This document shows positions 95 to 58,440 of a stretch of 64,000 bases of DNA, piece by piece (the first letter of the stretch is position 1; the number at the start of each line of letters is the position of its first letter). A program made the translations under genes and the position numbers. Below the pieces are notes generated by a model, which worked only from the letters and a program-made list of their open reading frames with translations, was not told the DNA's origin and did no database searches. The stretch is taken from NCBI GenBank assembly GCA_042568205.1, contig JBHPJE010000007.1, forward strand, positions 35 through 64,034, written 5' to 3'. The stretch comes from Patescibacteria group bacterium (GTDB lineage Bacteria > Patescibacteriota > Gracilibacteria > UBA1369 > PNNO01).

Positions 95-970
95 ATGAAG
101 AAAAATACACCTAAATTAAAAAAAGGACTCGCTCAAATGTTTAAAGGAGGAGTAATAATGGATGTTGTAACAGCTGATGAAGCAAAAATTGCTGAAGATG
201 CTGGAGCATGCGCTGTGATGGCTTTAGAAAGGGTTCCTTCGGATATTAGAAAAGATGGAGGAGTTGCTAGAATGAGTGATCCTAAATTAATTAAAGAAAT
301 ACAAAAAGCTGTGACGATTCCAGTTATGGCAAAAGTTAGAATTGGTCATTTTGTTGAAGCACAGATTTTAGAAGCGTTGAAAGTTGATTATATTGATGAA
401 AGTGAGGTTTTAACTCCGGCTGATGAAAAATTTCATATAAATAAACATGATTTCGATGTTCCGTTTGTTTGTGGATGTACTTATTTAGGTGAAGCTTTGC
501 GTCGAATTGATGAAGGTGCAATGATGATGAGAACAAAAGGTGAGGCAGGAACAGGAAATGTTGTTGAAGCAGTTCGTCATGCTCGCACAGTTAATGATGA
601 AATTTTAATGCTTCAAAAAGCCTCAGCAGATAAACGAAAAAAATGGGCAAAGGCTGAGCGTGTTCCAGTTGCACTAGTAAATGAAGTTTGTAAATTAGGT
701 AGATTGCCAATTGTAAATTTTGCAGCTGGTGGAATTGCAACTCCAGCAGATGCAGCAATGATGATGCAACTTGGTGTTGATGGAGTTTTTGTTGGATCAG
801 GAATTTTTAAATCTTCTCATCCAGAAAAACGAGCAAGATCAATTGTTGAAGCAACTACTCATTTTAATGATCCAAAAATATTAGCGAAAGTTTCTGAAGA
901 TTTGGGAGATTGTATGGAAAGTAAACAAATTTCTGACTTAGAACATCGTTATGCCGAAAGAGGTTGGTAA
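95..970 (+). CDS. pdxS: pyridoxal 5'-phosphate synthase, lyase subunit PdxS
   Basis: The 291-aa ORF carries the hallmark PdxS/SNZ signature [45 protein letters not shown]. It is followed by an overlapping pdxT. Confidence 0.95.
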
Positions 971-5927: not shown

Positions 5928-6099
5928 GCTCATTCGTTTTTATTTCTGTTTTTTAATGAACTTTTTATATTTGCTTAATTAGAATATTATACCATTAATA
6001 AGGGAAAAATTCAACCCTCAAAGTAATGAAAATTTATTAGATAATGGTAATTTTCTAAATATTTACTATAATAGTTAAGCTTATCTTTAATCCTTTTTA

Positions 6100-6705
6100 A
6101 TGAGCAAAGAACAGGAACTTACAGGAAAACTAATAATAATTGCTGGACCTTCAGGAGTAGGCAAGGGGACTGTAATATCTCACTTAAAGGAACTTTATCC
6201 GGATTGGGAATTCCCAATATCCGCTACTACAAGGGAACCGCGAGAAGGAGAAGAAGATGGAATTGTATATCATTTTGTTGAAAGGTCTGAATTTGAAAGA
6301 ATGATTGAGGACGGGGAGTTATTAGAATATGCAGTAGTTCATCAGGAAGAATATTATGGAACCTTAAAAGCACCAATCATTGAAGCGCTTAAACAAGGCA
6401 AAATCGTAATTCGTGAAGTTGATATGCAAGGATTGGAATCAATTCAGGAAGTAATTCCAAAAGCGAATTTAGTATCGATTTTCTTAACAGTTCCAAATAA
6501 ACAGGATTTAATCGATAGAATTCAAAATAGAGGGAGTTTACCAGCTGAAGAAATTAAAAGGCGTATGGAGAGCGCTGAGAAGGAATTCGAAAAAGGCGGA
6601 GAAATAAGCGATTATCAGGTGCCAAGCTTAACAAATCAAATTGCAAAGTGTGTTAGCGATGTTGAAAAAGTCATTCTAGACGAAACTAAATTTATTGGGG
6701 TGTAG
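6100..6705 (+). CDS. gmk: guanylate kinase
   Basis: The 201-aa ORF has the P-loop GPSGVGKGT and the motif ATTREPREGEEDGIVYHFV. Confidence 0.93.
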   Translation: MSKEQELTGKLIIIAGPSGVGKGTVISHLKELYPDWEFPISATTREPREGEEDGIVYHFVERSEFERMIEDGELLEYAVVHQEEYYGTLKAPIIEALKQGKIVIREVDMQGLESIQEVIPKANLVSIFLTVPNKQDLIDRIQNRGSLPAEEIKRRMESAEKEFEKGGEISDYQVPSLTNQIAKCVSDVEKVILDETKFIGV

Positions 6706-6770
6706 CCAAGTGGTAAGGCAACGGGTTCTGGTCCCGTGACTCGGGGGTTCGAATCCCTCCACCCCAGCCA
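6696..6770 (+). tRNA. tRNA-Gln (anticodon CUG), CCA encoded
   Basis: It folds by hand as UGGGGUG UA GCC AAGUGGUAA GGC A ACGGG UUCUGGU CCCGU GACUC GGGGG UUCGAAU CCCUC CACCCCA G CCA. It has the U1-A72 pair and overall layout of E. coli tRNA-Gln. Confidence 0.9.
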
Positions 6771-32367: not shown

Positions 32368-32596
32368 GCGCCAGGTCAGAACGCTATTGGTGTTCTGCCC
32401 GTGTTGTTTGCGTCGGTCGCGTCTCCCCTCGAGAGGGAGGCCCACTAACTGCCCAACCTTTGAAGCGCACGGTTGTGCACTTTTCCGCGACGCACAGCTT
32501 TTGTTGCACCTCACCATCACGGTAAGCATGCAACCCGTGGTGTGCGTACAAACGGGTACACGAGGCATTACACTAACAAACGAACTGACCTGGCGT
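32368..32596. ncRNA. 229-nt GC-rich structured element closed by a 12-bp helix (unclassified, strand uncertain)
   Basis: The closing helix pairs gcgccaggtcag (32368-32379) with ctgacctggcgt (32585-32596). Rod-like continuation pairs are ttggtgt/acactaa, tgcc/ggca, cgtgt/acacg and gtttg/caaac, with internal hairpins. By hand count, 32401-32460 is about 60% G+C. The G-U pairs favour the plus strand, but the promoter and flanking tRNA context favour the minus strand. Confidence 0.45.
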
Positions 32597-32670
32597 TAGG
32601 CGGTACCGGATTTGAACCGGTGTCCTTCGGGTTCCTAGCCCGACGAGCTACCAGACTGCTCCAACCGCCA
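32597..32670 (-). tRNA. tRNA-like gene with an initiator-type body and anticodon loop CUAGGAA (anticodon AGG), no encoded CCA
   Basis: The minus strand folds as UGGCGGU UG GAGC AGUCUGGUA GCUC G UCGGG CUAGGAA CCCGA AGGAC ACCGG UUCAAAU CCGGU ACCGCCU A. All stems are perfect except a U1-U72 mismatch. It has A11:U24 and three G:C pairs closing the anticodon stem, as in bacterial tRNA-fMet. Confidence 0.7.
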
Positions 32671-32828
32671 CTAACGGAGTCCAGAAGAACTCCTTGATGA
32701 ACTTGATCGAGAAAGGAGGAGCGACATCCCCACAATTAGGGATGCCCTTTTGCGCCACACCCGTGGCTTGCGGAACCCCAAACAACAACCGACCGATCTT
32801 GTTCACAAGAAATACTCTGAACTCCTAT

Positions 32829-32914
32829 TCGAGGCGAGAGGATTTGAACCTCCGACTTCTGGAGTAGTTAGATGATAATAACTCCAGTGCGCTACCAGAA
32901 TGCGCCACGCCTCG
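32829..32914 (-). tRNA. tRNA-like gene with a Pro-type body and a 12-nt-expanded anticodon arm, no encoded CCA
   Basis: The minus strand folds as CGAGGCG UG GCGC AUUCUGGUA GCGC A CUGGA GUUAUUAUCAUCUAACUAC UCCAG AAGUC GGAGG UUCAAAU CCUCU CGCCUCG A. Acceptor, D and T arms are canonical (C1:G72 and A73, as in bacterial tRNA-Pro). Between the 5-bp anticodon stem strands there are 19 nt instead of 7. Confidence 0.5.
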
Positions 32915-32966
32915 TATAGGTTTTTACACAATGAAAAAGAACAATGGTAAAGAACCATGGACGCTT

Positions 32967-32994
32967 ATTATAAGACTTCGCTTGCCAAAGTCAA
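32967..32994 (-). promoter_or_regulatory. consensus sigma70-type promoter driving the RNA island
   Basis: On the minus strand, TTGACT (32994-32989), a 16-nt spacer and TATAAT (32972-32967) lie 52 nt upstream of the 5' end of the tRNA-like gene at 32914. Confidence 0.55.
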
Positions 32995-33005
32995 GGAATA
33001 ATATT

Positions 33006-33293
33006 CTAATTAACTAATTCCTCTAATAATTGTCTCATTTCATGTTGTTTTAGCTCTTTTTCATGAGTCTTTTTTATTTGTAAAACTTTTTCTTCTTTGT
33101 TTTTGAAATCAAGGTTAACAATGACTTCGTCGCCAGGTTGAATTCCTTTAGGGAGCCTTTCCTCTGGCCAAAAGAAGACATCTCCATCATGCATTTCTTC
33201 TTCATTATTAAAAGAGCCGCAGAAGACGAACTCAGCGAGTCCGTCCTCTACGGTAATTAATTTTGCTTCTTTTAATTCGTTACTTTCAGTCAT
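33006..33293 (-). CDS. small hypothetical protein (95 aa, possibly DUF3006-like)
   Basis: The ORF lies immediately downstream of hppA. The N-terminal beta-rich region followed by a charged helical tail only loosely resembles DUF3006. Confidence 0.45.
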   Translation of the reverse strand: MTESNELKEAKLITVEDGLAEFVFCGSFNNEEEMHDGDVFFWPEERLPKGIQPGDEVIVNLDFKNKEEKVLQIKKTHEKELKQHEMRQLLEELVN

Positions 33294-36324: not shown

Positions 36325-38091
36325 ATGGCTGAAGAAGAAGACAAAAAAAATCAGCAAAATAATCCAGCAAAACCTGTAAAAGATCAGGGTAGTAAACCTG
36401 TGTCTGATGATCAGGCTAATTTTAAGAAAAAGCGTAGAAGAAGACCTAGAAAAAAGAAAAAACCAAGTACAGAAGCTGAGGTAAAAGAAACCCCTAAAAC
36501 TCGACCTGAGCCAGAACAGGAAAATATACCCAAAAAGAAACGAAGAAGACGTCCTAGAAAAAGAAAACCAAAAACAGAAGAACCTGTAGAGGAATCACCT
36601 TTTGCTGATGAAGATATTTTTTCAATAGATGATGAGCAAGCTCCAGAAGAGAAAGCACCCACTATTGATGAGGAAGTCCCATTGGATACTTCAATGGACG
36701 AGGATACTTCAATGGATGAGGATATATTTTCAGACGAAGAAGTAACTTCAGAAATTGAACCAGAAATTGAAACAGAAATTGAAACAGTGGAAGAAGATAC
36801 AGATGAACAATTTCTTGCTAGTGATGATAGTACAGATTCAACTGAAGAAGAATTGCTTGAAGAACCAGCTGCGACTCCTTCAGTACCAGCTGAAGTTCAA
36901 CCTCCTCCAGAATTACCTGATGAAATTGCACCTGAAGAACCTACGCCAGAAAAAGATAAATCTTCAGATTTTGCTTTAAAAGAAGAAGAAGCACAAGGAC
37001 CTGTTGGATGGAATCAACTAAAAGATGCAATAAAACAAGATCATGTAGAAACAGAGCAACAAATGGATGCAGGAGTTATGCCTGTTCCAGTCCCAGTTGC
37101 TGAAACTGCAGAGCCTGAAGAAGAAGCTCCTGAAGAAGAAACTTTTGTAGAACCTGCATCTGAACCTGAGGCGATTCCTGAAGTAGAGCCAGTACCTATT
37201 ACAGAACAACCTGCTGAAGAATTAGCAGCAGATGAAGATGCTGAGAAACAAGAAATAGTTAAAATAATTATAAAGTATGCTTTAGGAGGATGCGCAGTAA
37301 TTGCGATTATTGCAGGTATTTTCTTATTCAAAATTCCCCAAACAATCATAGGATTTTCACAAGATTTACTAAATGATGGTGAAACAAAACAAATTGATCA
37401 AGTTGAAGATACAGTTTCTGATATAACATCAAAACCTGATACTACAAGACCTGATTCAGATATTAAAGATGGGACAGGAACAGCATTGATTTCTGGAGAT
37501 CAGATACCAAAAGTAAAAAAGGTTCCAACATCTGTTCAAACAGTATTTAAAATTGGACTTCCAGAGGTTCAAGTTTCAGATTCGGATAGAATTGCGACTT
37601 ATTTAAACGTTCTCAATGAACTACAAAATGGCTTTGAGACTGATATAAATCAATTGTTAGACGCTGCTAATAACAGAGCTAGTGCAATTTCTATTCATTT
37701 ACGTGAACTTAATGGACTTTTAGCTGAAGCTCAGTTTACTTATGAAAATTTAAAAGAAGAAGCTGATGAAATTAAAGTTCAATACAATAAAGTTTCAAAT
37801 GAAAAAGACATTTTAGAGGAATCATTCTTTGTTTCTTTAGATAGTCTTCAATCAAATGAATCAAACCAAATTCTTAATGAATTTGTTGAAATTTCAAAAG
37901 CTCAAATTAATTTAAAAGCCGAATTTAATGCTCTTACTAAGATATCTGGCATGTACGATACTGCACTTAATAATATGGAGGCGAGAATTAAAGATATCCA
38001 GGCAAATAAAGAAGCATTGGTTAAAGGAGTGAAAATTGTGGACATTAAAGGATCTGATTTAGATTTGATTATTCAAGAAGGGGAACTATAA
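36325..38091 (+). CDS. hypothetical bitopic membrane protein with a polybasic/acidic disordered N-terminus and a coiled-coil C-terminus
   Basis: The 588-aa ORF has a duplicated KKKRRRRPRK patch (36424-36465 and 36532-36572). It also has acidic repeats (TSMDEDTSMDED, EIEPEIETEIET) and one TM helix (ALGGCAVIAIIAGIFLF). The C-terminal half is heptad-like. Confidence 0.55.
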   Translation: MAEEEDKKNQQNNPAKPVKDQGSKPVSDDQANFKKKRRRRPRKKKKPSTEAEVKETPKTRPEPEQENIPKKKRRRRPRKRKPKTEEPVEESPFADEDIFSIDDEQAPEEKAPTIDEEVPLDTSMDEDTSMDEDIFSDEEVTSEIEPEIETEIETVEEDTDEQFLASDDSTDSTEEELLEEPAATPSVPAEVQPPPELPDEIAPEEPTPEKDKSSDFALKEEEAQGPVGWNQLKDAIKQDHVETEQQMDAGVMPVPVPVAETAEPEEEAPEEETFVEPASEPEAIPEVEPVPITEQPAEELAADEDAEKQEIVKIIIKYALGGCAVIAIIAGIFLFKIPQTIIGFSQDLLNDGETKQIDQVEDTVSDITSKPDTTRPDSDIKDGTGTALISGDQIPKVKKVPTSVQTVFKIGLPEVQVSDSDRIATYLNVLNELQNGFETDINQLLDAANNRASAISIHLRELNGLLAEAQFTYENLKEEADEIKVQYNKVSNEKDILEESFFVSLDSLQSNESNQILNEFVEISKAQINLKAEFNALTKISGMYDTALNNMEARIKDIQANKEALVKGVKIVDIKGSDLDLIIQEGEL

Positions 38092-48202: not shown

Positions 48203-51200
48203 CTAGAACACTTCAGAAGTTACATTTACTAATTCTCCAAGGATTGGAGGAGTGTTTAAATAGATTCTATTATCGAATCTAATTAAGATTGCAGCTTCTT
48301 CTTTGGTAGGATCACCAGCGAATGTTCTGTATTTAAATAAATGTTGGATATCACCATAGATTGATCCATAGTGAACTAATGGATTTTCATTATATTGTTC
48401 GTTTTCAGCACAAGTTCCTTCACACATTCTTCCACCTTCACCATTTTCACCCTCTTGAACGAAGAACACACCATTAGTTTCTTCAACTCCAGGAGCTACT
48501 AAGATATCTCCTCCAATAACAATTAATGCTAATGAAGGGATTTGTCTTGGATCAGTTAGATCAGAAGGATCTCTGAATTTAATATCTTCAGTGATTTCAA
48601 CATCACCACCAATTACTACGATAGTTTGTGCACCATTACTGAATTCACCACCTAATTTTAGTTTTCCAGTATTTTTCTTTACATAAACTTTACTAGAACT
48701 ATCAGGCAATGAATTGCTTCCATTAATTTCTGTTTTATTATCAAGAACTCTATCGTATCTTGCAAATAGATCAATATTTCGTGCGATATTCTGAACAATT
48801 GCAAATTGAGTTAAGTCATCAGAAGTTTTAAGAGTAATTTCACAAATTAATGATGAAATTCTTTCAATATCTTCATATCCTTCAATTTCTTGGTCTTTAT
48901 CTTTACATAATCTATCACTAAATGCAGATAGAATACTTTCACCTTCACCAGATTTAACTAAATCAGGAGTATCAATATCAGGTCTGATAATAGGAACTGG
49001 TACATTTTCGATTTCTGAACAAGATAAAGTATCAACACCATAATCAAATGGATTTTCTAAGAATACTTCACCACCAGATCTAACAATGATGAAAGGACAA
49101 GGGATAATAACTTCAGCTTCGTTATTATAATCTTTGTCATTTTCATCGAATCCAGCTTCATCATCAAATCTAGCAACATTTGGATAGATTTCACCACAAA
49201 CTCCTTGATCAGTTAGATCATGATCTTGATCACTACAGTTAGATGGACTAACTACTGTATCAACATCACCACTATAAGTGATAAGAACTTCTCTTCGTGG
49301 TGGAACATTTTCAATTTCAACACCTGAACGATCTCCAATATCTCCGTTGTAACAAAGATCATCAGAAGTATCATCACAATCTTCAATAATTCCTTCACCT
49401 TCTACCCATATTTCCATTGAACCTTCATCATAATAGATTCTTCCACCTTCTGGTGCATCATCTAAATCTGACATAGTACTTGCAATGTAACCTTGGATAT
49501 AACCATCACGACCAATTGTGTCAGTGATTGTTACATCTTGTTCTTCATCATTTCTGTGTTCGTACATAATTCTGTAATCAACATTGTTATCACTAAAGTT
49601 GATTGCAGCTCTTGAACTAAATGAAGCAGAACCTGCATCTTCATCTTTTACATTTTTATCAAATTGAGGAGGATAAACAACTCTATCTAAATCATCATTA
49701 CATTCATCTTCCCATTCAGGTACCCAAACTTCTACATGATCAGCACCTTCAAGGTCTTCTTCTTCAATAATGAAGCAGTCATCTTCATCAACATCTACTA
49801 AGAATTCATCGTCTCCATCTACAGAAACATAAACTCCAGTAGATTGAACTGGCCAATCTGTATCATCTACACAGATTTCATTATCACGACCTCTTTCAAA
49901 TTCTTCTTCTTCAAGTCTGAATCGTTCACATTCACGTTCAGGACTTGTGATTTCATCTTCACAATCTTCATCATTATATTCAATTAAAGCTTTAGCTTCT
50001 AAAATATCCTCAGGAATTGATCCTGGGAAATTGAAATCATCGAAATCAATACAAGGATCACCTTGAGTATTAGTACTAAATACTATTTCTCCGTCTCTAA
50101 TTACATTCCATTCAATTTCATTGTTATAACCTTGAACAGTTGTTTCAACGTTAATATCTACGCAATATTCTTTTTCTTCATCTGTATCGAATACATCATA
50201 TTGAGGACGGAAGTCTAAATCTAAACAAACACCTCCATATTGATGTTCTTCAGTTTCATAACTGTCTGCACAAGCTGCAACATCAGTATCAAGTACATCA
50301 ATTGTCATTGTTCCTTGTTCTTGAGCTCTTGCTTCAATTTGAACATTTGCAGGAGCAATAGCACATTGAGGACTTGTTACCCAAATTGAATCTCTAAAGT
50401 CTATATTAGTATTAGAGTAACAATATTTGATTAATGGTTGCTCACCTTCAAACATGAATGGATTATTATCTGTATCAGTTGGTCCTTCTAGAACAATAGG
50501 TACCCAATTATTTAACTCTACTAATGCAGTATTTAATTTACCTGGATTAGTTTTAAGTTCTTTACATTCAGGTGGCTCAGTGTCTGGTTGATAAATAATT
50601 TTAATTGAATCTCCACAAGGAAGTTCCCAGCTTTCTTCATCATTAATATCATTGATTGCTGTAATTCTAATAATTGAACTAGTTTTTGCAGGATTAGGTA
50701 ATCCATTTAAATAAACAGTTCTACTAGTAGTTACTAAATCTTCAGATCCAGGTCCTCCTGGAGTTTCTGAAATAGTGATTCCTCCACGTTTTGAAGGATC
50801 TACATAATATCTATAACCTTCAATTACATTAGGATCAGAATCTAATCTAACTTCTAATGGTTCGTTAACTAAAGGTTCATCAACTGTGATAGTTGCAGGT
50901 ACAAATACTGCACCTTTCCCATCATCAGCTTCAGTTGGTCTGACAATTTCTAATAAATTACAATATCCTGGTTCGTCATCATCTGGTGGTTCTGGAGTTG
51001 CTTCGAATTCAAGGTAAATTACTACATAATAATCTTGAGATGAATTAAACCATCCATTTTTACTACTTCCTGTTCTAACAGTTACACCTTCATGAGTTAA
51101 AGAAGTTAAATCTGCAGGTGCTAAATGTCCATAACCTTCTAATTTACTAATATGCGCATCTACTGGTTGAAGAGTAAATGGCACTCCATTAGAAGTGATA

Positions 51201-51769
51201 TCTACGTCTGCCCAAATTTTTCTTGGTTTTGTATTATCTGCAGAAATTAATGCTCTTGGGCTAAATGATGTTTGTGGAGTTGAACTTCCCCAATGATCTA
51301 CTTTTAATCCAACGCCTTTTGCATAAATATCATCTCCACCTATTGCATTGTTATGCATATAAATCCACAATCCGAATTTTTTTGTTTCATTTGGATCTCC
51401 CGAAAAATATAGTTCATGTCGAATATCATCCTGGTCAAACTGATATGAAGGATAATTATCCCATGGAGATGGATAAGGCATTCCAGCGAACTGAGCTCTT
51501 GCTTTTTCAATATAAACAAACTGCCTTTCATCATATAATCTACCATCTTCAGTTGGGTAGTTATAATAATTGTTGAAAGAAGGAAAGCTTAAACCTGTAC
51601 CATAAGGCCCATTAAAACTAATTCCATCGTTATGGAAATCTTGACAGCTGCCTCCTGGGCAAGAAGAAGATTCATTCGTAGCTCCATAATCAGCAACAGC
51701 AACAGATGCAGTTAGCATAGTTGCAATTGAGAGAGCTCCGATAATGAGTAATTTAATTTTTGTTTTCAT
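48203..51769 (-). CDS. 1,188-aa acidic, Cys-rich secreted protein of unknown function
   Basis: The Sec signal peptide is MKTKIKLLIIGALSIATMLTASVAVA. The mature part is strongly Asp/Glu-rich with many Cys. The C-terminal region has beta-helix-like repeats (IVVIGGDVEITEDI; LIVIGGDILVAPGV). I recognise no catalytic motif. Confidence 0.7.
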   Translation of the reverse strand: MKTKIKLLIIGALSIATMLTASVAVADYGATNESSSCPGGSCQDFHNDGISFNGPYGTGLSFPSFNNYYNYPTEDGRLYDERQFVYIEKARAQFAGMPYPSPWDNYPSYQFDQDDIRHELYFSGDPNETKKFGLWIYMHNNAIGGDDIYAKGVGLKVDHWGSSTPQTSFSPRALISADNTKPRKIWADVDITSNGVPFTLQPVDAHISKLEGYGHLAPADLTSLTHEGVTVRTGSSKNGWFNSSQDYYVVIYLEFEATPEPPDDDEPGYCNLLEIVRPTEADDGKGAVFVPATITVDEPLVNEPLEVRLDSDPNVIEGYRYYVDPSKRGGITISETPGGPGSEDLVTTSRTVYLNGLPNPAKTSSIIRITAINDINDEESWELPCGDSIKIIYQPDTEPPECKELKTNPGKLNTALVELNNWVPIVLEGPTDTDNNPFMFEGEQPLIKYCYSNTNIDFRDSIWVTSPQCAIAPANVQIEARAQEQGTMTIDVLDTDVAACADSYETEEHQYGGVCLDLDFRPQYDVFDTDEEKEYCVDINVETTVQGYNNEIEWNVIRDGEIVFSTNTQGDPCIDFDDFNFPGSIPEDILEAKALIEYNDEDCEDEITSPERECERFRLEEEEFERGRDNEICVDDTDWPVQSTGVYVSVDGDDEFLVDVDEDDCFIIEEEDLEGADHVEVWVPEWEDECNDDLDRVVYPPQFDKNVKDEDAGSASFSSRAAINFSDNNVDYRIMYEHRNDEEQDVTITDTIGRDGYIQGYIASTMSDLDDAPEGGRIYYDEGSMEIWVEGEGIIEDCDDTSDDLCYNGDIGDRSGVEIENVPPRREVLITYSGDVDTVVSPSNCSDQDHDLTDQGVCGEIYPNVARFDDEAGFDENDKDYNNEAEVIIPCPFIIVRSGGEVFLENPFDYGVDTLSCSEIENVPVPIIRPDIDTPDLVKSGEGESILSAFSDRLCKDKDQEIEGYEDIERISSLICEITLKTSDDLTQFAIVQNIARNIDLFARYDRVLDNKTEINGSNSLPDSSSKVYVKKNTGKLKLGGEFSNGAQTIVVIGGDVEITEDIKFRDPSDLTDPRQIPSLALIVIGGDILVAPGVEETNGVFFVQEGENGEGGRMCEGTCAENEQYNENPLVHYGSIYGDIQHLFKYRTFAGDPTKEEAAILIRFDNRIYLNTPPILGELVNVTSEVF

Positions 51770-52365: not shown

Positions 52366-55300
52366 TTATAAATTTCCTGTACCTTCAGTTTGAGGACCTT
52401 GAACAGCTGTATCAGGTTGTGGATTTTGTGGAGTTCCACCTCCTGTTGTTTGATCTTGAGTAGGAGCTCTATGTTGAGTAGGAGTTTTGTGTGGTGTTTC
52501 TCTTCTTGGTGGGGTTGGAGTCTTTCTTCTTTTAAATTTATGTCCTGAGTAAATTCCAGCGGTAAATTGACCATAAGCTTTCTTTTCTGTTCTACCAACT
52601 CTGATATTTACATCAGCTCCAGCACCAAATAATCTTCCTCGTTTCACCCCTTTAAGAGTGATTCCGATTCTTTGATGAACAGCTACTGTTCCATTTCCAC
52701 ATTTTAAGTATGGACCAGCATAGATTTTAGTTTCAGCTACATGGAATATGTATTTATTATCGAATGTATATGTTGATTCTCCATTTAACTGGGCGTTTCG
52801 GATTCCAAGAACAATTGTCTTGAAGTCGTTAAATGCAGCTGCGTGAGTTTTTAATACTGTTTCTAAATTCTTTCCATTTAGATTTTGAATTATCTTTGTT
52901 AATCCTTTAAATTTTGGAACTCCAAGTATTGATAATAATGGTGAAACACCATTTCTATCGTACATTGAAAGTAAAAGTTGAGATAATTCAGATTCTAAGA
53001 ATTTCTTCTTAACACTTGTTTTTTCAAGATTCTTAGTTGGAAGAGGAGACATCATTCTTAATATAAGATTTGCTGCTGCTCTTTCATTTGCATCCGGAGA
53101 ATTTACATTAAGCCTGGTTGGTTTAATCATTTTTAATGTATCTTTGAATGCCTTATTGTCAGTATCTGAACCAAATGCTGTAGGCATTGATTGTAAGCTT
53201 CCGAATCTATGTGTATATGAACCATATTTAATACCTGCCTTCAAAGGAAGACTCTTTTTACTTTTTAGGAATTTTTGTAATTGTTCATGATTTTGCGGCA
53301 TACAAAGTAAAAGATAGTTTGCTATCCCATTAACTGAAGCTCCTTTATATTTTTTTCTAATTTCTTTCCATTGATCTCTATTATTTTCAATGAATTTTCT
53401 AATAAATCTCTTCATATATCTCATAAATAATCTGTTCCTAACTTGTAATCTTCGAGTGATTACTTTTGGATATTTTTTATTATGATCAAGAAGTTTCGTG
53501 AAACTCTTATCTAATAAATAAGAATAAATAAGATTTTTTTCTTGTTCATTCAAGGATGCAAGTTTCGTGCCTTTCGTATAAATGCCGTTTTGCTTTGCAT
53601 ATTGTTTATATCTTGCAGCAATTGTTCTAAACCATGTTGTTTTAAATTTATTTTCTCCATCTGGTGTTTTTAATTTTCCAACACCAATGTTGAAAGGTCT
53701 TCTGAATTTTTTATCAGCATAAATTAAATCACCAAATTTCTTTAACTGTAATTTTTTAGTTCGAACACGTTCAATGTTTCTATATTTCATTGCATCATGT
53801 AAGTCAGTAGTCATTTTTTGAGCCTGAGGCCTTGTATAATCAGCTTTAAGGTCAATAAATGATTCATGATTTCTTTTGCTGTTTTTATATTCAGCTAAAG
53901 TCATTACATTTGAAGGTCTTTTTGTCATAACAGGTCTTCCATTTACAAGTTTTGTATCGTAGTGTTGCCTTCCTAATGCTTCATTTTTTACCCTTTGATA
54001 TTTTTCACCTTTGAATTTGTATAACGACCAAGGTGAAGAATTTCTTATAGTTCCATTATCAAGATCCGGATTTGCTTTGAATGCAATTACATGCAAATTC
54101 ATTGCTCCTCTTTTTTGGAATGGATATCTATAAGTACTTCTTGTTACATATAAATCTTTAACTAAATTAGCTGAAAGTAAGAACCTGTTATTTGCTCTAT
54201 CAAGAATCAATCCTCTCGCTTTCATTGCAGGATCCATTAAAACTTCAACATTACTATCCATAGTTTGTAATGGTGTTAAAGCAAGTAACCATCCTTTTGG
54301 ATTTCTTGGATCTTTTACTTTTTCAACGTGAATGTTTAATTTAGAAAAAGTTTTTTTAGCTAATTCAAAAGTACTTTGGAAAGTATCAACTTGTCCTTTT
54401 TTCTTTGGTTTTTTGTTTGGACCTTCTTGACCACTTCCTCGACTATATTTACCATCAGCAATATTTGCACTTTTTTCACCAGTTCTTCTTGCAACACCTG
54501 ATCTTCCTAAATTTGAATCAAAATATAAAATTCCACTCGTAGCTTCAATTACATATGGTGCAATTTTAAAATTTCTTAATCCTTGTTTTCTTAGTTTTTG
54601 TCTTAATTCAAATTCAACAGCTTTTCGTTGCATGTAATCTGAATATTTTGGATGCGCATGCCTAACTACATAAGTAACTTCAGTTCCTGGTATTTTAAAA
54701 GTGATATATGCACCAACACCAACTGAAGCAAGTTTTCCTGATTTCGCATCAATACCTAGAAATGCACCAGCACCAATTCCAAGCAGCCAAGGTACTTTCA
54801 TCTTTCTTTTTGCATATTCAACCCAATCTTTTCTGGCTTCTTTATAAAGATCAACTATAGTTGCATTGTCTTTTATTTTTGCCTTCGTTTTAATTTTCTT
54901 CATTACTCTACCAAAAGTCGGATGATTAAGAATTAATGAAGCTGCTTTATCAATTTTTCCATCATCAATGGCTCTATCAATATCTTTGATATTTCTTAAT
55001 TCCATACTTTCTTTAACTTGACGTTTTTCTGATCTATCTCTGTCCCATATGCCACCAACAGCACCACCTACACCTACAGTCTTTCCTTTATAATCAGCTC
55101 CTGCACTTATACTGAAATACAAATTATAATCTGTTTTTCCAATAGGCATTTCAAGCCCTATTGCAGCACCTGCAAAAGTAGCTGTAGCACCTACTGTATA
55201 TCTGAAACTTAATTTTTTACCTGCTTTAATTGCACCGTTAATTCCTAAAAATGGAATACATCTTTCTTGAATTGTTCTTCCTTGCTGACCAAATACACCA

Positions 55301-58300
55301 AATGTAAAATATTGTGGCTGTCCATTAATTTCAAATAATTTTACTGAAGCAGTCATCCCGGCACCAAATCTTTGAGTTCTTACGTTTGCAGGAATTGTAC
55401 CATTTGTAATACCAATAACAGCTAAACGAACTTTTTGTTCTACTGCTTTTAATAGATAAACAGGGCATCCATTTTTTAGTGCAGCTAATTGAGCTTTTCT
55501 TTCTAATGGTCTGGTTGAAAGATTTTTATTCATAACTTCTGACCATTTTTTAGATGTTTCAATTTTTCTACCTAACATAAATCCAACTCTAATTAACTTT
55601 AATAGAGCAGTTTTACCTTTTAATTGGTCTGGTTCAATGTTATTTAGTTTCAATGCCTTATATAGGACATCTAGTATTTCAACCTTATCAAGATTCAATA
55701 ATGAATTCATATCCATTCCAATTTTATTTTCAATTCCTAATTCTTTAACTAATTTTGGAATAACTTTATGAAAATTTGCATCAGTAGCATTCATTATTAC
55801 TGAAGTCAGTCCATATTCAATATAATCATTTGTTTTATTTAATACTTTTGTTGGATTAGGCTGATAAACTGTAGTTCCAGGAGCTCTGTGAGAAGTTTTT
55901 TCTAGCATATCCAGATAACCTCTATCCTGAGCCATGAATTTTTCAAATTCACTTGGATTAATAGTGATTTGACCTAAATGAGCCATTGTAATTTTTTTGC
56001 CTTTTTTCCAAACAGCTCTTCCATGCCATAATCCTTGCCACCAGTTAAAGTTTTCTTTAACCACTGAACCAGTAGGTGTAAAGATAGATCTAATAAATAA
56101 TCTGGCTTTCATCCCCGCGCTTAATGAAGCTCTAACTTTTTCCCATTTTTTAAAGTCTGCTTTAGCATGTTCTCCTTTAACCCAAAGTCTAGCTTTTGTT
56201 TGTTGGATTGTAGCTAATGCTTCCAGCCATCCAAATTTTGGTAACTTAACTAATACATATTTATTATCATTAACTTTTTTAAGACATTTTTCAGCAAGAA
56301 GTTTTCTTAGACCAAATGCCATGAATAATAATTTTAATCCGCCATTTGATTTAAGCATTTCACCCGGATTAAAATCAGGGCTTTCTTGTTTATAGAATTG
56401 TTCTTTAATTTTTGCCTGCATTAAATTACTAGCACCAATATCTATAGATGTAGGTGCGTTATCTTCTTTATGAAGAAGTGAACCTAAACTATAATAATTT
56501 AGCCCTTGTGGTTCTTTTTCAATTTGTTCTACACCAGCAAGCATTGGTCTATACACATCAGTCTTTGTTTCTCGATGGACCTTAAATGCTTCAGGTTTTT
56601 TAAATTCCTCTAAAGCATCAAATATTCGTGCAATACCTAAAGCAATAGTTCTTAGTTTTCTCCATTCTTTAACAATTGCTTTTTCTTCTTTCCCAATAGG
56701 ATTATCTTCGTTGATATGTCTAACCATCATCTGCTTTTCAACTCGATAATAATCTTTAATAAATTGTTTATATCCACCCTCATATAATTCTCTTTTACCA
56801 TCTAAGCTAACTTTGAAAAAGTCTTCTGCATATAATCTTGAATTCAATTGTTTTTGAATAATTTCCTGAATATAATGTCTTTTTTGTGTAGGTGACATCG
56901 GATGAAAAGGAGGATTTTCTAAAATTGGGCCAATATATCTTCCTACTTTTTTCCAGATATCAACGTTTTTAAAATGTTCATCATTTCTTAATTGTTCTGG
57001 TACGTCATATTGAGCATTTTGAAAGATATAACCGTAATAAAAATCGTCAATTAAACTATCCGCTGCTTCTCTTTTTCTTTCTCTTTCTCTCTCTGCAGCT
57101 GTCTCTTTTAATTTAATATGATCAGGGAATGAGATTTTATAAGTAACCGCAAGTTCTTTTAATTTTTTATCAATTTCTATTAACAATTTATTTTTATCAG
57201 CTTCTTTTTCAAGACCGTAAGCTTTGTTAATTATTAGTTGAATTGAATTCAAGGTTTTTCCATATTCGGTTTTATTTTTTATATTTTCTGTTTCTTCGAT
57301 AAAGTAATCTAATCTTTTTTGATTCAATATAATCTTTTCATCTGCTGTTCCCTGATTTGTTTCAGTAGCCACATTCAGCTTAGCTGCGCTTTTAGCTTTT
57401 GGTTTTTTAGTAATTGGCTTTGCTGCATCAGGATTATATGCACCAGCTTCATATTTAATATTGCTAATTACAGTATTATGAAAAATTCTTACTCTTTGAG
57501 GTCTTTTATTTCCTTTTAGAGATGATTTAATATAAAAAGTTCCTGAACCTTTATGGTATACAGCCTCTTCTTTAAACTTTCTTCCACCTGGGCTTACACC
57601 ACTTACCGTGAAGCTAATATGAATATTTCCACCTTGCAGTTTACTTAAATCAAACAGGTCATGAATTCTAACTGTCTTTTCAGCTTTTCTATCAATTCTA
57701 CCTTTGGGAGTTAAAAATTTAACAATGTAACCCTTCTTGTGTTTGTGTAAGTACTTTTTATTTGTAACTAATTGATCAACTGCTTTTGTTGGGTCCTCTT
57801 TTAGCATTTTTTGTACATTCTTTTTCAATACTTTTTTCTTTGCTTTTGTTCTTTTTACAACTGCTTCTTTCTTTTTACCCAGTTCTGCTCTTAGTTTTCT
57901 TATATCTTCAATGATTGCTCTACGAATATCTAAACTGTTCGAAGCTTCTTTCAAATCAACTTTCCAAAATGTTCCTTTTTTATTATGAAATGTTAATTTA
58001 CCACCTTCATCCAAAGTGACAGTACATGGTTTGTTATCTCCAACTTTTTTTGCATTTTTCCCAATAAGATAATTAAGATCTTTAAATGCTGTTTTAAAGA
58101 ATCTTAAAAATGCTTTAGATTTTTTTACGTGTTTAGGTAATTTTTTAAAACTTCTTGAAAGTAAACCTAATGCAATTTTTCCTGAATCTAGTCCTCTTCC
58201 TTTAATTTCAAAAGTTGATTTGTTTTTTATGTATTTGTCGAATCCTTCTTCATAACCTTCTAATTCATCATTTATTTGTTTTATGGTTTGTTTCTTTCTT

Positions 58301-58440
58301 TCAAGTTTATCTTCTTTTTGTTCCCTAGGCGATTGAATTAGAACACCTAAAGGTTTTTTAAAGACATGTTTTGATTCGCCAGTTAAAAGATTTTTACTAG
58401 CGAAATAATTCAGTAAATGAATGTAGTTTTTGTTTATCAT
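52366..58440 (-). CDS. 2,024-aa lysine-rich giant protein of unknown function
   Basis: This is an uninterrupted 6.1-kb ORF with no N-terminal signal peptide or TM helix. It is very Lys/Arg-rich and has three Gly/Ala-rich glycine-zipper-like segments. Its Pro/Thr-rich tail ends in QTEGTGNL. Confidence 0.7.
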   Translation of the reverse strand: MINKNYIHLLNYFASKNLLTGESKHVFKKPLGVLIQSPREQKEDKLERKKQTIKQINDELEGYEEGFDKYIKNKSTFEIKGRGLDSGKIALGLLSRSFKKLPKHVKKSKAFLRFFKTAFKDLNYLIGKNAKKVGDNKPCTVTLDEGGKLTFHNKKGTFWKVDLKEASNSLDIRRAIIEDIRKLRAELGKKKEAVVKRTKAKKKVLKKNVQKMLKEDPTKAVDQLVTNKKYLHKHKKGYIVKFLTPKGRIDRKAEKTVRIHDLFDLSKLQGGNIHISFTVSGVSPGGRKFKEEAVYHKGSGTFYIKSSLKGNKRPQRVRIFHNTVISNIKYEAGAYNPDAAKPITKKPKAKSAAKLNVATETNQGTADEKIILNQKRLDYFIEETENIKNKTEYGKTLNSIQLIINKAYGLEKEADKNKLLIEIDKKLKELAVTYKISFPDHIKLKETAAERERERKREAADSLIDDFYYGYIFQNAQYDVPEQLRNDEHFKNVDIWKKVGRYIGPILENPPFHPMSPTQKRHYIQEIIQKQLNSRLYAEDFFKVSLDGKRELYEGGYKQFIKDYYRVEKQMMVRHINEDNPIGKEEKAIVKEWRKLRTIALGIARIFDALEEFKKPEAFKVHRETKTDVYRPMLAGVEQIEKEPQGLNYYSLGSLLHKEDNAPTSIDIGASNLMQAKIKEQFYKQESPDFNPGEMLKSNGGLKLLFMAFGLRKLLAEKCLKKVNDNKYVLVKLPKFGWLEALATIQQTKARLWVKGEHAKADFKKWEKVRASLSAGMKARLFIRSIFTPTGSVVKENFNWWQGLWHGRAVWKKGKKITMAHLGQITINPSEFEKFMAQDRGYLDMLEKTSHRAPGTTVYQPNPTKVLNKTNDYIEYGLTSVIMNATDANFHKVIPKLVKELGIENKIGMDMNSLLNLDKVEILDVLYKALKLNNIEPDQLKGKTALLKLIRVGFMLGRKIETSKKWSEVMNKNLSTRPLERKAQLAALKNGCPVYLLKAVEQKVRLAVIGITNGTIPANVRTQRFGAGMTASVKLFEINGQPQYFTFGVFGQQGRTIQERCIPFLGINGAIKAGKKLSFRYTVGATATFAGAAIGLEMPIGKTDYNLYFSISAGADYKGKTVGVGGAVGGIWDRDRSEKRQVKESMELRNIKDIDRAIDDGKIDKAASLILNHPTFGRVMKKIKTKAKIKDNATIVDLYKEARKDWVEYAKRKMKVPWLLGIGAGAFLGIDAKSGKLASVGVGAYITFKIPGTEVTYVVRHAHPKYSDYMQRKAVEFELRQKLRKQGLRNFKIAPYVIEATSGILYFDSNLGRSGVARRTGEKSANIADGKYSRGSGQEGPNKKPKKKGQVDTFQSTFELAKKTFSKLNIHVEKVKDPRNPKGWLLALTPLQTMDSNVEVLMDPAMKARGLILDRANNRFLLSANLVKDLYVTRSTYRYPFQKRGAMNLHVIAFKANPDLDNGTIRNSSPWSLYKFKGEKYQRVKNEALGRQHYDTKLVNGRPVMTKRPSNVMTLAEYKNSKRNHESFIDLKADYTRPQAQKMTTDLHDAMKYRNIERVRTKKLQLKKFGDLIYADKKFRRPFNIGVGKLKTPDGENKFKTTWFRTIAARYKQYAKQNGIYTKGTKLASLNEQEKNLIYSYLLDKSFTKLLDHNKKYPKVITRRLQVRNRLFMRYMKRFIRKFIENNRDQWKEIRKKYKGASVNGIANYLLLCMPQNHEQLQKFLKSKKSLPLKAGIKYGSYTHRFGSLQSMPTAFGSDTDNKAFKDTLKMIKPTRLNVNSPDANERAAANLILRMMSPLPTKNLEKTSVKKKFLESELSQLLLSMYDRNGVSPLLSILGVPKFKGLTKIIQNLNGKNLETVLKTHAAAFNDFKTIVLGIRNAQLNGESTYTFDNKYIFHVAETKIYAGPYLKCGNGTVAVHQRIGITLKGVKRGRLFGAGADVNIRVGRTEKKAYGQFTAGIYSGHKFKRRKTPTPPRRETPHKTPTQHRAPTQDQTTGGGTPQNPQPDTAVQGPQTEGTGNL

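What the first reader, a model, noticed from the sequence alone, without database searches (positions are those of the whole stretch)
32597..32670. Initiator-type tRNA body carrying a proline anticodon (AGG)
Seen in sequence: this tRNA has perfect stems and all three hallmarks of bacterial initiator tRNA. These are a mismatched 1:72 pair (U-U), A11:U24 in the D stem, and three consecutive G:C pairs closing the anticodon stem (UCGGG/CCCGA). It is near-identical in layout to E. coli tRNA-fMet. Its 7-nt anticodon loop, however, is CUAGGAA, so the anticodon is AGG rather than CAU.

Established knowledge: MetRS reads the CAU anticodon. ProRS uses G35, G36 and A73, all of which this tRNA has. A34 tRNAs are rare in bacteria.

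Inference: it is either a recently decayed initiator copy or a tRNA with a non-standard role. Possible roles are proline-charged initiator-like tRNA, regulatory tRNA or a decoy. Perfect stem maintenance argues against simple decay.
Basis: partly seen in the sequence, partly recalled or inferred. Interest (0 to 1): 0.65.

Follow-up and report, generated by a model that had tools for sequence, protein, structure and literature searches.

The report
Initiator-derived tRNA-like module, not a working tRNA
The sequence really is an initiator-tRNA body with an AGG loop, but it is probably not a decoding tRNA: it is one cloverleaf module in a strain-variable non-coding RNA locus of a Peregrinibacteria-like (CPR) bacterium, where the tRNA shape is conserved and the anticodon is not.

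Summary
Observation confirmed, with one correction: the gene is on the minus strand (32670->32597). It scores 61 bits on the Rfam tRNA model. It has U1xU72, A11:U24, three G:C pairs closing the anticodon stem and the loop CUAGGAA. It is 85% identical to the E. coli initiator genes.

The tRNA is the second of two cloverleaf modules in a GC-rich (51% against 33%) non-coding locus of about 620 nt. The order is: strong promoter, conserved leader, module 1, closed domain A, module 2 (AGG), closed domain B.

Relatives with the same gene order either lack the locus or carry it with other modules. Every other module has a non-decoding loop: 6 nt, 9-31 nt, or 7 nt without U33. None has AGG or CAU.

The modules evolve fast (63-72% identity, flanks 83-88%) and mostly by two-sided compensatory changes. 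A genuine tRNA-Gln is 96% conserved and encodes CCA; no module does. No other AGG initiator-like tRNA turned up in 185,579 species genomes, the JGI metagenomes or the viral contigs.

Best reading: a non-decoding tRNA-shaped handle or scaffold in a composite ncRNA, probably an RNase P/Z processing signal. A strain-specific extra tRNA-Pro(AGG) is not excluded. There are no RNA data, and no reads confirm the loop.

The parts
32967..32994 (-). Sigma-70-type promoter TTGACT-16 nt-TATAAT (11 of 12 matches). It sits directly after the stop codon of the 95-aa ORF and is conserved in every relative that carries the locus.
   Evidence: scan; alignment shows TTGAC..TATAAT conserved in L105, L112, L113, L116, L118 and L122.
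32915..32960 (-). Conserved leader of about 45 nt: CCAUGGUUCUUUACCAU (5-bp hairpin AUGGU/ACCAU) ... UGUGUAAAAACCUAU. It starts with an AUG about 8 nt after the -10 box. In 6 of 7 versions this opens an 11-codon ORF (MV.YH..F.IV*); in the window it is frameshifted by a 1-nt deletion.
   Evidence: alignment and sequences; motif occurs exactly once in the window; reading frames read directly from the sequences.
32829..32914 (-). tRNA-like module 1. All four stems are intact (one G:U in the T stem). The halves of the body best match E. coli tRNA-Pro genes. There are 19 nt between the 5-bp anticodon stem strands (or a 7-bp stem plus a 15-nt loop), so no usable anticodon. ARAGORN's 'Asn-ATT' call is nominal.
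   Evidence: 53.6 bits; structure; pairs; halves hit tRNA-Pro.
32671..32828 (-). Domain A: a structured spacer of about 158 nt closed by a 5'/3' helix of about 20 bp (GGAGUUCAGAG.../...CUUCUGGACUCC). It contains an internal hairpin and an unpaired anti-Shine-Dalgarno-like stretch CUCCUCCUUUCU (32721-32710).
   Evidence: RNAalifold on 5 versions: 42 pairs, 16 with two-sided compensatory changes; coordinates.
32597..32670 (-). tRNA-like module 2, the finding itself: an initiator-type body with loop CUAGGAA (32638-32632), nominal anticodon AGG (32636-32634), U1xU72, A73 and no encoded CCA.
32369..32596 (-). Domain B: a structured RNA of about 228 nt that begins right after module 2 and is closed by the 11-bp helix CGCCAGGUCAG (32595-32585) / CUGACCUGGCG (32379-32369). 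Against L118 the outer frame is 86-89% conserved and the centre is hypervariable (42%). It is followed by U-rich CUACUUUAAUACUAUU, which runs into the 3' end of the convergent DUF3048 gene.
   Evidence: 57 pairs, 6 compensatory, 2 sequences.

Best explanation
**What it is.** The 74-nt element is a real, well-folded cloverleaf descended from a bacterial initiator tRNA. It is probably not used to read codons.

**Where it sits.** It is one module of a composite non-coding RNA locus (window about 32994 to 32369, minus strand) in one Peregrinibacteria-like (CPR) sub-lineage. The locus lies between a conserved 95-aa gene and the convergent DUF3048 gene.

**How the locus is built.** One strong promoter and a conserved leader drive one or two tRNA-shaped modules. 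Each module is followed at once by a structured domain whose 5' and 3' ends pair.

**What selection keeps.** Selection keeps the tRNA shape: the acceptor, D, anticodon and T stems and the elbow nucleotides. It does not keep the anticodon loop, the acceptor sequence or the isoacceptor type.

**Proposed mechanism (inferred, not shown).** The modules serve as tRNA-shaped handles. RNase P would cut at their 5' ends and RNase Z or another 3' nuclease at their 3' ends. This would release and/or stabilise the flanking closed domains, which would be the functional products. The modules may also act as folding scaffolds.

**What AGG means on this view.** It is the loop sequence of a module that has lost CAU, not a proline anticodon in use.

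**Shown:** the anatomy, the variability, the covariation, the absence from relatives and the uniqueness of AGG.
**Inferred:** transcription, processing and lack of aminoacylation.
For: **1. Context.**
- The promoter TTGACT-16-TATAAT lies upstream.
- The same promoter and leader occur in all seven versions of the locus.
- The locus is 50.8% GC in a 33.1% GC window, as expected for structured RNA under selection in an AT-rich genome.

**2. Every module folds as a tRNA.**
- All 12 modules found match the Rfam tRNA model. Eleven exceed the 29-bit gathering score (37.5-61.3 bits); L112 module 2 scores 28.5.
- 11 of the 12 have loops that cannot decode:
  - 6 nt: UGCAAG, UACAAG, CGAAAG.
  - 9-31 nt.
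  - 7 nt without U33: CAACAAC.
- ARAGORN's nominal calls are Asn, Cys, Val, Leu, Ser and '????', so no decoding identity is conserved.

**3. Not conserved.**
- The locus is absent from syntenic relatives L108-L111 and L115, where the flanking genes are 2-22 nt apart.
- The positional orthologue of module 2 is a class II body in L112, L113 and L116. In L118-L121 it is a non-initiator body with a 23-nt loop. L105-L107 and L122 have no module 2.

**4. Fast, structure-preserving evolution.**
- Window against L118: module 1 is 63% identical and module 2 is 72%, while PPase, the small ORF and DUF3048 are 83-88%.
- A genuine tRNA-Gln is 72/75 identical between the window and L123, where the flanking genes are 74-87% identical.
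- In seven class I modules, 144 of 147 stem cells pair and 16 of 21 pairs show two-sided changes.
- Module 2 against its L118 orthologue shows 8 two-sided changes and 0 one-sided changes.

**5. No CCA.** No module encodes CCA. The genuine tRNA-Gln does, in both genomes.

**6. Module types swap position.** The initiator-like type is module 2 here but module 1 in L113. The GCGC-D-stem type is module 1 here but module 2 in L118.

**7. The flanking domains are conserved structures.**
- Domain A has 42 predicted pairs, 16 with compensatory changes.
- Domain B keeps an 11-bp closing helix, and its outer frame is 86-89% conserved.

**8. Uniqueness of AGG.** An initiator-type anticodon arm with AGG was not found in 185,579 species genomes (0 of 104 hits to CGTCGGGCTDNNAACCCGAAGG). 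The JGI metagenomes gave one non-tRNA fragment. The viral contigs gave none.

**9. Precedent.** B. cereus tRNAOther is a pseudo-tRNA that acts as a tRNA-like element inside a larger regulatory RNA (PMC3399842).
Against: - There is no transcript, end-mapping or aminoacylation evidence. No RNA run holds the stretch.
- Module 2 of this window is the one module with a fully canonical 7-nt loop (C32, U33, A37, A38) plus G35, G36 and A73.
- If three changes fell at random in a 7-nt loop, exactly the three anticodon positions would be hit 1 time in 35 (my arithmetic). This hints at selection on the anticodon itself.
- RNase P and RNase Z do not need an anticodon stem, yet that stem is kept in all modules. 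The pure 'handle' idea does not explain this.
- The hypervariable loops and domain centres could be functional specificity elements rather than unconstrained sequence.
- Only seven distinct versions were available, all from metagenome assemblies.
Confidence: 0.55

Rival explanations
1. A working, strain-specific extra tRNA-Pro(AGG). An initiator tRNA copy switched anticodon (alloacceptor recruitment). It would be matured with CCA, charged by ProRS through G35/G36/A73, and would read the abundant CCU codon as an elongator.
For: - The 7-nt loop is canonical, with U33 and A37, and the stems are perfect.
- G35, G36 and A73 are present.
- All 3 anticodon bases changed against 5 of 55 elsewhere.
- CCU is a major codon: 316 CCU, 351 CCA, 20 CCC and 43 CCG in 18,591 codons.
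- The initiator D-arm (9-nt D-loop, stable 4-bp stem) is the EF-P recognition motif shared with tRNA-Pro. Pre-charged Pro-tRNAfMet(CGG) works in elongation in vitro (PMC4890201).
- AGG read as Pro would cause no mistranslation.
Against: - It is not conserved in any relative. Positional orthologues have non-decoding loops.
- No CCA is encoded, unlike the genuine tRNA-Gln.
- An unpaired 1:72 end weakens EF-Tu binding, and U72 replaces the G72 used by bacterial-type ProRS (established knowledge).
- A34 is not used for proline in bacteria.
- The same arm with AGG was not found in 185,579 species genomes.
- It is embedded between structured domains in a locus whose other modules cannot decode.
Confidence: 0.15
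2. A functionless remnant: the locus is a decaying cluster of duplicated tRNA genes, and the AGG module is a pseudogene caught early in decay.
For: - The locus is dispensable and absent from several syntenic relatives.
- Content varies from strain to strain.
- Loops carry indels.
- The leader ORF is frameshifted in the window.
Against: - 98% of stem cells are still paired, and 16 of 21 pairs show two-sided compensatory change.
- GC is 51% in a 33% GC genome.
- The promoter and leader are conserved in all seven versions, including the more distant L122.
- The closing helices and domain frames are conserved.
- Neutral decay would break stems and drift towards AT.
Confidence: 0.13
3. A tRNA mimic that binds a tRNA-recognising partner (for example ProRS, formyltransferase, the EF-P/30S P site, a T-box leader or a nuclease). 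It would act as a decoy or regulator, with the loop as the specificity element.
For: - The shape is conserved while the loops are hypervariable.
- Several modules keep the tRNA-Pro/tRNA-fMet-type D-arm: 9-nt loop and stable 4-bp stem (PMC4890201).
- Domain A carries an unpaired anti-SD-like CUCCUCCUUUCU.
- Bacterial YrlA Y RNAs mimic tRNA in order to bind proteins (PMC4201824).
Against: - No candidate partner gene co-varies with the locus. The neighbours are the same with and without it.
- Module type is not conserved (initiator-like, Pro-like, class II), which argues against one specific partner.
- No Rfam family, YrlA included, matches.
Confidence: 0.12
4. An initiator-like tRNA charged with proline (or another residue) that starts translation at CCU codons.
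For: - The 1:72 mismatch, the three G:C pairs and A11:U24 are all kept.
- Initiator anticodon mutants are known to initiate at complementary codons in E. coli (established knowledge).
Against: - It is not conserved in any relative.
- 3:70 is G:C instead of the C3:G70 formylation determinant.
- No CCA is encoded.
- Nothing in the window suggests CCU starts. Long ORFs start with ATG, GTG or TTG.
Confidence: 0.02
5. An assembly or sequencing error in the loop, or a chimeric join at a conserved tRNA segment.
For: - There is a single assembly, and no reads were available for the loop.
- Initiator tRNA segments from other organisms are very abundant in the same kind of sample.
Against: - Both flanks of the module (domain A and domain B) are collinear with L118-L121, so the join is genuine.
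- The acceptor stem (UGGCGGU/ACCGCCU) is unlike the foreign initiators and pairs perfectly with itself.
- Three adjacent substitutions are not a typical Illumina or assembly error.
Confidence: 0.03

Closest known systems
Bacterial initiator tRNA (E. coli metZWV/metY tRNA-fMet)
   Same: - The D arm (GAGC-AGYCUGGUA-GCUC with A11:U24), the anticodon stem UCGGG/CCCGA with three G:C pairs, the variable loop, the T arm and the unpaired 1:72 end are all shared.
- Overall identity is 85%.
- The core is 87% identical to initiator bodies of unrelated bacteria.
   Different: - The anticodon is AGG, not CAU.
- The mismatch is U1xU72 rather than C1xA72.
- 3:70 is G:C, not C:G.
- No CCA is encoded.
- It is not conserved in relatives.
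- It is embedded in a composite ncRNA locus.
B. cereus tRNAOther, a pseudo-tRNA inside a larger regulatory RNA (PMC3399842)
   Same: - Both are tRNA-derived cloverleaves that do not work in translation.
- Both are expressed as part of longer RNAs.
- tRNAOther was proposed to supply a tRNA-like structural element. This is the closest analogue to the reading proposed here.
   Different: - tRNAOther is a single element beside a genomic island and is iron-regulated.
- Here there are one or two modules in tandem with closed structured domains, a dedicated conserved promoter and leader, shuffling of module types between strains, and a CPR host.
- There is no experimental evidence here.
Bacterial Y RNAs of the YrlA type (PMC4201824)
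   Same: Both are non-coding RNAs with a domain that mimics tRNA (acceptor, T and D arms). YrlA is handled by tRNA enzymes.
   Different: - In YrlA the tRNA-like domain is fused to a Ro60 (Rsr)-binding helix, and the gene sits beside rsr.
- Here the cloverleaves are complete and separate, no rsr is nearby, and the Rfam scans returned nothing but tRNA matches.
tRNA-like processing signals (mitochondrial tRNA punctuation; MALAT1-mascRNA; viral tRNA-miRNA precursors). From my own knowledge.
   Same: Cloverleaves inside a longer transcript mark RNase P/RNase Z cleavage sites and release the neighbouring RNAs. No decoding is needed.
   Different: These systems are eukaryotic, organellar or viral. 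Processing is not shown here. The bacterial context and the strain-variable module types have not been described, to my knowledge.
Engineered tRNAfMet carrying a proline anticodon (tRNAfMet-CGG; PMC4890201)
   Same: The design is the same: an initiator body with an NGG anticodon. The engineered tRNA shows that such a molecule, once carrying Pro, can act in elongation and recruit EF-P through the shared D-arm.
   Different: It is artificial and was charged by flexizyme. Its anticodon is CGG, not AGG. It says nothing about natural charging, or about the effect of the U1xU72 end.

Membership tests
Bacterial initiator tRNA (tRNA-fMet) | CAU anticodon (MetRS identity; reads AUG/GUG/UUG in the P site) | tested here: not met
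   The loop is CUAGGAA, so the anticodon is AGG.
Bacterial initiator tRNA (tRNA-fMet) | Unpaired 1:72 end | tested here: met
   U1xU72. The canonical mismatch is C1xA72.
Bacterial initiator tRNA (tRNA-fMet) | Three consecutive G:C pairs at 29-31:39-41, and A11:U24 | tested here: met
   UCGGG/CCCGA and GAGC/GCUC are identical to E. coli.
Bacterial initiator tRNA (tRNA-fMet) | Formylation determinants G2:C71 and C3:G70 | tested here: inconclusive
   G2:C71 is present, but 3:70 is G:C instead of C:G. The effect on the formyltransferase cannot be tested here.
Bacterial initiator tRNA (tRNA-fMet) | Essential gene, conserved in close relatives | tested here: not met
   The locus is absent in L108-L111 and L115. 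Other modules occupy the same position in L105, L112, L113, L116, L118 and L122.
Bacterial tRNA-Pro | G35 and G36 in the anticodon, and A73 | tested here: met
   A34 G35 G36 and discriminator A.
Bacterial tRNA-Pro | C1:G72 pair (G72 is a determinant for bacterial-type ProRS) | tested here: not met
   U1xU72. Which type of ProRS this organism has could not be checked.
Bacterial tRNA-Pro | Body of the tRNA-Pro type, and anticodon UGG, GGG or CGG | tested here: not met
   The best matches are initiator tRNA-Met genes. A34 is not a bacterial proline anticodon (established knowledge). The tRNA-Pro-like body is the neighbouring module 1.
Bacterial tRNA-Pro | Aminoacylation with proline and use on the ribosome | not testable with these tools
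   Needs charged-tRNA sequencing or in vitro charging.
Genuine tRNA gene of this genome (any isotype) | Near-identity among relatives, and an encoded 3' CCA as in the window's tRNA-Gln | tested here: not met
   tRNA-Gln is 72/75 identical with CCA encoded in both genomes. The modules are 63-72% identical and none encodes CCA.
tRNA pseudogene (neutral decay) | Stem-breaking changes, loss of expression signals, drift towards genome composition | tested here: not met
   20 of 21 pairs are intact here and 144 of 147 across seven modules. The promoter is conserved. GC is 61% in the module against 33% in the window.
tRNA-like element within a larger ncRNA (tRNAOther-type) | A cloverleaf that cannot or does not decode, embedded in a longer conserved structured transcript | tested here: inconclusive
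   The embedding, the shared promoter and the structured flanks are shown. This module's own loop looks decodable. Co-transcription is inferred, since no RNA data exist.
YrlA / Y RNA | Ro60-binding helix, neighbouring rsr gene, match to the Rfam model | tested here: not met
   No Rfam match down to E = 10. The neighbours are PPase, a 95-aa ORF, DUF3048, L25, YbaB, YceG and DnaA.

The most novel reading that the evidence does not exclude
The finding may be the visible tip of an undescribed class of composite bacterial ncRNA. In it, cassettes of the form 'tRNA-shaped module plus closed structured domain' are driven by a strong promoter with a conserved, possibly antitermination-like or leaderless-ORF leader. 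The modules are recruited from tRNA-fMet, tRNA-Pro and class II tRNAs.

The cassettes are shuffled between strains. Their apical parts (the anticodon loops and the domain centres) are hypervariable on a conserved scaffold. This could mean diversifying selection on recognition elements, for example a translation-directed regulator or decoy carrying an anti-SD-like motif. On this reading the AGG module might be charged and still not decode.
Probability: 0.3. Interest if true: 0.7.

Novelty: new variant of a known kind. Interest (0 to 1): 0.5.

Why it matters
Taken at face value, this would be a bacterial initiator tRNA reassigned to proline, which would be a striking exception in translation. 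The evidence points elsewhere.

tRNA genes (initiator, Pro-like and class II) appear to have been recruited as shape-only modules in a fast-evolving, strain-variable ncRNA locus of a CPR bacterium. This matters in two ways:

- **Annotation.** tRNA finders will report phantom 'Pro-AGG', 'Asn-ATT', 'Cys-ACA' and similar genes in these genomes. That distorts inferences about tRNA sets and genetic codes in CPR metagenome-assembled genomes.
- **Biology.** The locus is a natural case of tRNA exaptation, with clear covariation and a conserved expression context. It offers a tractable entry point to structured ncRNAs in an uncultured, reduced-genome lineage where almost none are known.

Tried and rejected
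**1. Mini or degenerate rRNA operon.**
- The idea came from the strong promoter, the GUUCUUU boxA-like repeats, the long closing helices and the CACCUCCUUUCU stretch in L118.
- Local alignment of every domain against a whole E. coli rrn operon gave no significant or consistent match (z <= 2.7, scattered positions).
- Rfam rRNA models gave nothing.
- I dropped it as a homology claim. The boxA-like and anti-SD-like motifs remain untested leads.

**2. Phage or mobile origin.**
- Viral contigs gave no match for the AGG arm, the leader or domain B. The one leader hit, L117, is a chance match in a high-GC contig.
- The neighbourhood is housekeeping chromosome close to dnaA.

**3. Known ncRNA families.** Rfam at E <= 10 returns only tRNA.

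**4. Introns in the long loops.** The inserts lack any triplet that fits the body type (there is no GG in module 1's loop). The 6-nt loops cannot be repaired by splicing.

**5. Antisense targets of the module 1 loop.** Matches in the window are no more than chance: 8 found against 6.2 expected.

**6. The 95-aa ORF as RNA rather than protein.** Rejected. Substitutions are biased to the third codon position and the peptide is conserved.

**7. Independent confirmation by reads, and expression data.** No run covers the loop and no RNA run exists.

Full report
**1. The observation**

ARAGORN finds three tRNAs in the window. One lies at 32597-32670 on the minus strand with anticodon AGG. Rfam's tRNA model scores it 61.3 bits against a gathering score of 29.

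Read 5'->3' it is:
UGGCGGU UG GAGC AGUCUGGUA GCUC G UCGGG CUAGGAA CCCGA AGGAC ACCGG UUCAAAU CCGGU ACCGCCU A.

- U1xU72, with all other stem pairs Watson-Crick.
- A11:U24.
- Three G:C pairs closing the anticodon stem.
- A canonical 7-nt loop with U33 and A37.
- A73.

The body is of the initiator type:
- BLAST against 5,426 E. coli genomes hits tRNA-Met genes at 85% identity, with a median of four places per genome.
- The top hit lies in a cluster of three tandem tRNA-Met genes, which I take to be metZWV.
- Phage-collection hits are all tRNA-Met.
- Against E. coli, positions 8-65 differ at 5 of 55 non-anticodon positions and at all three anticodon positions (P = 0.0018).

Two limits apply. No CCA is encoded. 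No public reads cover the loop, so the AGG rests on this one assembly.

**2. The organism and the neighbourhood**

The window is housekeeping chromosome. It carries:
- DnaA, YceG, YbaB and ribosomal protein L25.
- A DUF3048 protein.
- A membrane pyrophosphatase.
- RelA/SpoT, RecO, FtsX, GatA, GlnA and HolA.

Its GC content is 33%. The best named homologues of the pyrophosphatase come from Candidatus Peregrinibacteria, Gracilibacteria and Patescibacteria.

The tRNA lies in a 650-nt gap. On one side is a conserved 95-aa protein gene (33006-33293, minus strand); it is truly coding, since its substitutions are biased to the third codon position. On the other side is the convergent DUF3048 gene, which ends at 32357.

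**3. What the gap holds**

On the minus strand, in order:
- A near-consensus promoter, TTGACT-16-TATAAT (32994-32967).
- A leader of about 45 nt.
- A first cloverleaf (32914-32829, 53.6 bits). Its body halves best match E. coli tRNA-Pro. It has 19 nt between the anticodon-stem strands.
- A 158-nt structured spacer, domain A.
- The AGG cloverleaf.
- A domain B of about 228 nt. It is closed by the 11-bp helix CGCCAGGUCAG/CUGACCUGGCG, which starts one base after the tRNA's discriminator.

The locus is 50.8% GC. Rfam at E <= 10 finds nothing but the two tRNAs.

**4. Relatives**

I looked up exact homologues of the pyrophosphatase and of the 95-aa protein. This recovered syntenic loci from independent assemblies.

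Three lineages lack the locus. They are L108-L110, L111 and L115, with 84-86% pyrophosphatase identity. In them the two flanking genes are 2-22 nt apart.

Six other distinct versions carry it, always with the same promoter and leader:

| Locus | Module 1 | Module 2 |
|---|---|---|
| L118-L121 | 12 nt between the anticodon-stem strands | Non-initiator body; loop CAAGGAA plus a 16-nt hairpin insert |
| L112 | 20 nt between the anticodon-stem strands | Class II body, 6-nt loop UGCAAG |
| L113 | Initiator-like body, loop CGUAAAG on a 6-bp stem | Class II body, 6-nt loop UACAAG |
| L116 | 9-nt loop | Class II body, 6-nt loop CGAAAG |
| L105-L107 | Single module, loop CAACAAC without U33 | None |
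| L122 | Single module with a 31-nt loop | None |

The L118-L121 version is the same sequence in at least nine contigs from several samples.

Every module matches the Rfam tRNA model. All but one exceed the gathering score of 29 bits; L112 module 2 scores 28.5. None carries AGG or CAU in a usable loop. ARAGORN's nominal isotypes differ in each version. The window's module 2 is therefore the only one of twelve with a canonical loop.

**5. How the modules evolve**

- Between the window and L118, the pyrophosphatase, small ORF, promoter/leader and DUF3048 are 83-88% identical in DNA. Module 1 is 63% and module 2 is 72%.
- As a control, the genuine tRNA-Gln(CUG) of the window is 72/75 identical to its orthologue in L123. 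Its anticodon loop is identical and CCA is encoded in both. Its flanking genes are 74-87% identical.
- In seven class I modules, 144 of 147 stem positions pair, and 16 of 21 pairs show two-sided changes.
- Module 2 against its positional orthologue in L118 shows eight two-sided changes and no one-sided changes.
- Module types also change place. The initiator-like type (core 85-87% identical to true initiators) is module 2 here and module 1 in L113. The 'GCGC D-stem' type is module 1 here and module 2 in L118.
- No module encodes CCA.

This is the signature of selection for tRNA shape. It lacks the constraints of a decoding tRNA: synthetase identity, anticodon, and fit to EF-Tu and the ribosome.

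**6. The flanking domains**

- Domain A has a closing helix of about 20 bp and inner helices. RNAalifold predicts 42 pairs in five versions, 16 of them with compensatory changes.
- Domain A also has an unpaired CUCCUCCUUUCU stretch. It reads CACCUCCUUUCU in L118 and resembles the 3' end of 16S rRNA.
- Domain B has an outer frame that is 86-89% conserved and a centre that is only 42% alike.
- A second type of domain B occurs in L105 and L116.

**7. How unusual the AGG arm is**

- The pattern CGTCGGGCTDNNAACCCGAAGG was scanned across 185,579 species genomes. It gave 104 matches and none with AGG.
  - Most are genuine tRNA-Arg, tRNA-Lys or tRNA-Asn genes that share the stem.
  - 19 are initiator bodies with a single change at C34.
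- The JGI metagenome collection gave one hit, a high-GC fragment that is not a tRNA.
- The viral contigs gave none.

**8. Interpretation**

The most economical reading is that the AGG cloverleaf is an initiator-derived, tRNA-shaped module of a composite ncRNA and not a decoding tRNA.

By analogy with tRNA punctuation and with B. cereus tRNAOther (PMC3399842), I propose two roles for the modules. They mark RNase P and RNase Z cleavage sites, and/or they stabilise the transcript. Domains A and B would be the products. This step is inferred. There are no RNA data.

The main rival is a strain-specific, supernumerary tRNA-Pro(AGG). In its favour:
- The loop is canonical.
- All three anticodon bases changed and little else did.
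- G35, G36 and A73 are present.
- CCU is a major codon.
- The initiator D-arm is the EF-P recognition motif shared with tRNA-Pro, and a pre-charged tRNAfMet with a Pro anticodon works in elongation in vitro (PMC4890201).

Against it:
- It is not conserved in any relative.
- No CCA is encoded.
- The 1:72 end is unpaired, and U72 stands in place of G72.
- The company it keeps: every other module in this locus cannot decode.

Plain decay, an initiator that starts at CCU, a protein-binding decoy and an assembly error are each rated lower, for the reasons given under rival explanations.

**9. Verdict**

- The more interesting object is the locus, which no Rfam family covers. It is a new variant of the 'pseudo-tRNA inside a larger RNA' theme.
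- Interest is moderate. The anatomy is clear and unusual, but there is no expression or functional evidence and only seven versions from metagenomes.

Noticed in passing
window 32829-32914 (minus strand): A second aberrant tRNA lies 158 nt upstream of the finding. ARAGORN calls it 'Asn-ATT', but the body halves best match E. coli tRNA-Pro. The anticodon arm is a 7-bp stem with a 15-nt loop (UAUUAUCAUCUAACU). It belongs to the same locus.
   Followed up: yes
window 32915-32960 (minus strand); L105, L112, L113, L116, L118, L122 leaders: The leader begins with AUG about 8 nt after the -10 box, so it is nearly leaderless. In 6 of 7 versions it encodes an 11-codon ORF (MV[LFIN][YF][HT]..[FL].[IN]V*) of constant length, despite compensating indels in L118. 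In the window a 1-nt deletion shifts the frame. The same stretch contains two GUUCUUU repeats that resemble rRNA boxA. It is unclear whether this is a peptide, an antitermination site or only a 5' hairpin.
   Followed up: partly
window 32710-32721 (minus strand), within domain A: An unpaired CUCCUCCUUUCU stretch (CACCUCCUUUCU in L118) follows a hairpin and resembles the anti-Shine-Dalgarno 3' tail of 16S rRNA. It is kept in 4 of 5 versions. There is no wider similarity to an rRNA operon.
   Followed up: partly
window 32369-32596; L118 3700-3909: Domain B has a conserved outer frame (86-89% identity) and a hypervariable centre (42%). This mirrors the conserved stems and variable loops of the tRNA-like modules. 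A second, unrelated domain B type occurs in L105 and L116.
   Followed up: partly
L112 about 3945-4100; L116 about 5985-6185: Two relatives carry about 200 nt more between the locus terminator and the DUF3048 stop. The stretch is rich in short GC palindromes (for example CCCCGGGG, CTGGGCCCAGGCCCAG, CCCTCCCGGGAGGG). Its nature is unknown.
   Followed up: no
L008, L010, L012, L013, L016, L024-L026, L045, L057-L059, L063, L073, L085, L090, L096, L102 (genome-contig scan): 19 initiator-type anticodon arms across diverse genomes carry a single change at C34 (TAT x12, AAT x5, GAT x2). Examples are a Shigella flexneri copy (GAT, with a 1-nt deletion in the T loop) and Arsenophonus and Enterovibrio symbiont copies. 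Several are truncated. They are probably pseudogenes or att-site remnants.
   Followed up: no
L104 about 200-235 (minus strand): The only metagenome match to the AGG arm is a high-GC fragment, TCGTCGGGCTAGGAACCCGAAGGTCG, with no cloverleaf around it. A tRNA 3' half lies at the contig end about 190 nt away. It may be an integration-site remnant.
   Followed up: partly
window 33217-33253 (minus strand), inside the 95-aa ORF: A 17-bp hairpin followed by CTCTTTTAAT lies within the coding sequence, just downstream of the pyrophosphatase gene. It was the only terminator-like site in the scan.
   Followed up: no
window 36325-38091, 48203-51769, 52366-58440: These are large ORFs of 588, 1188 and 2024 aa. 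The first two have no Pfam match. The 2024-aa ORF was not scanned.
   Followed up: no
window 6696-6770: The genuine tRNA-Gln(CUG) encodes its CCA. It starts inside the last codons of the upstream ORF listed at 6100-6705; the syntenic gene in L123 carries a guanylate kinase domain (PF00625). It served as the control for tRNA conservation.
   Followed up: yes
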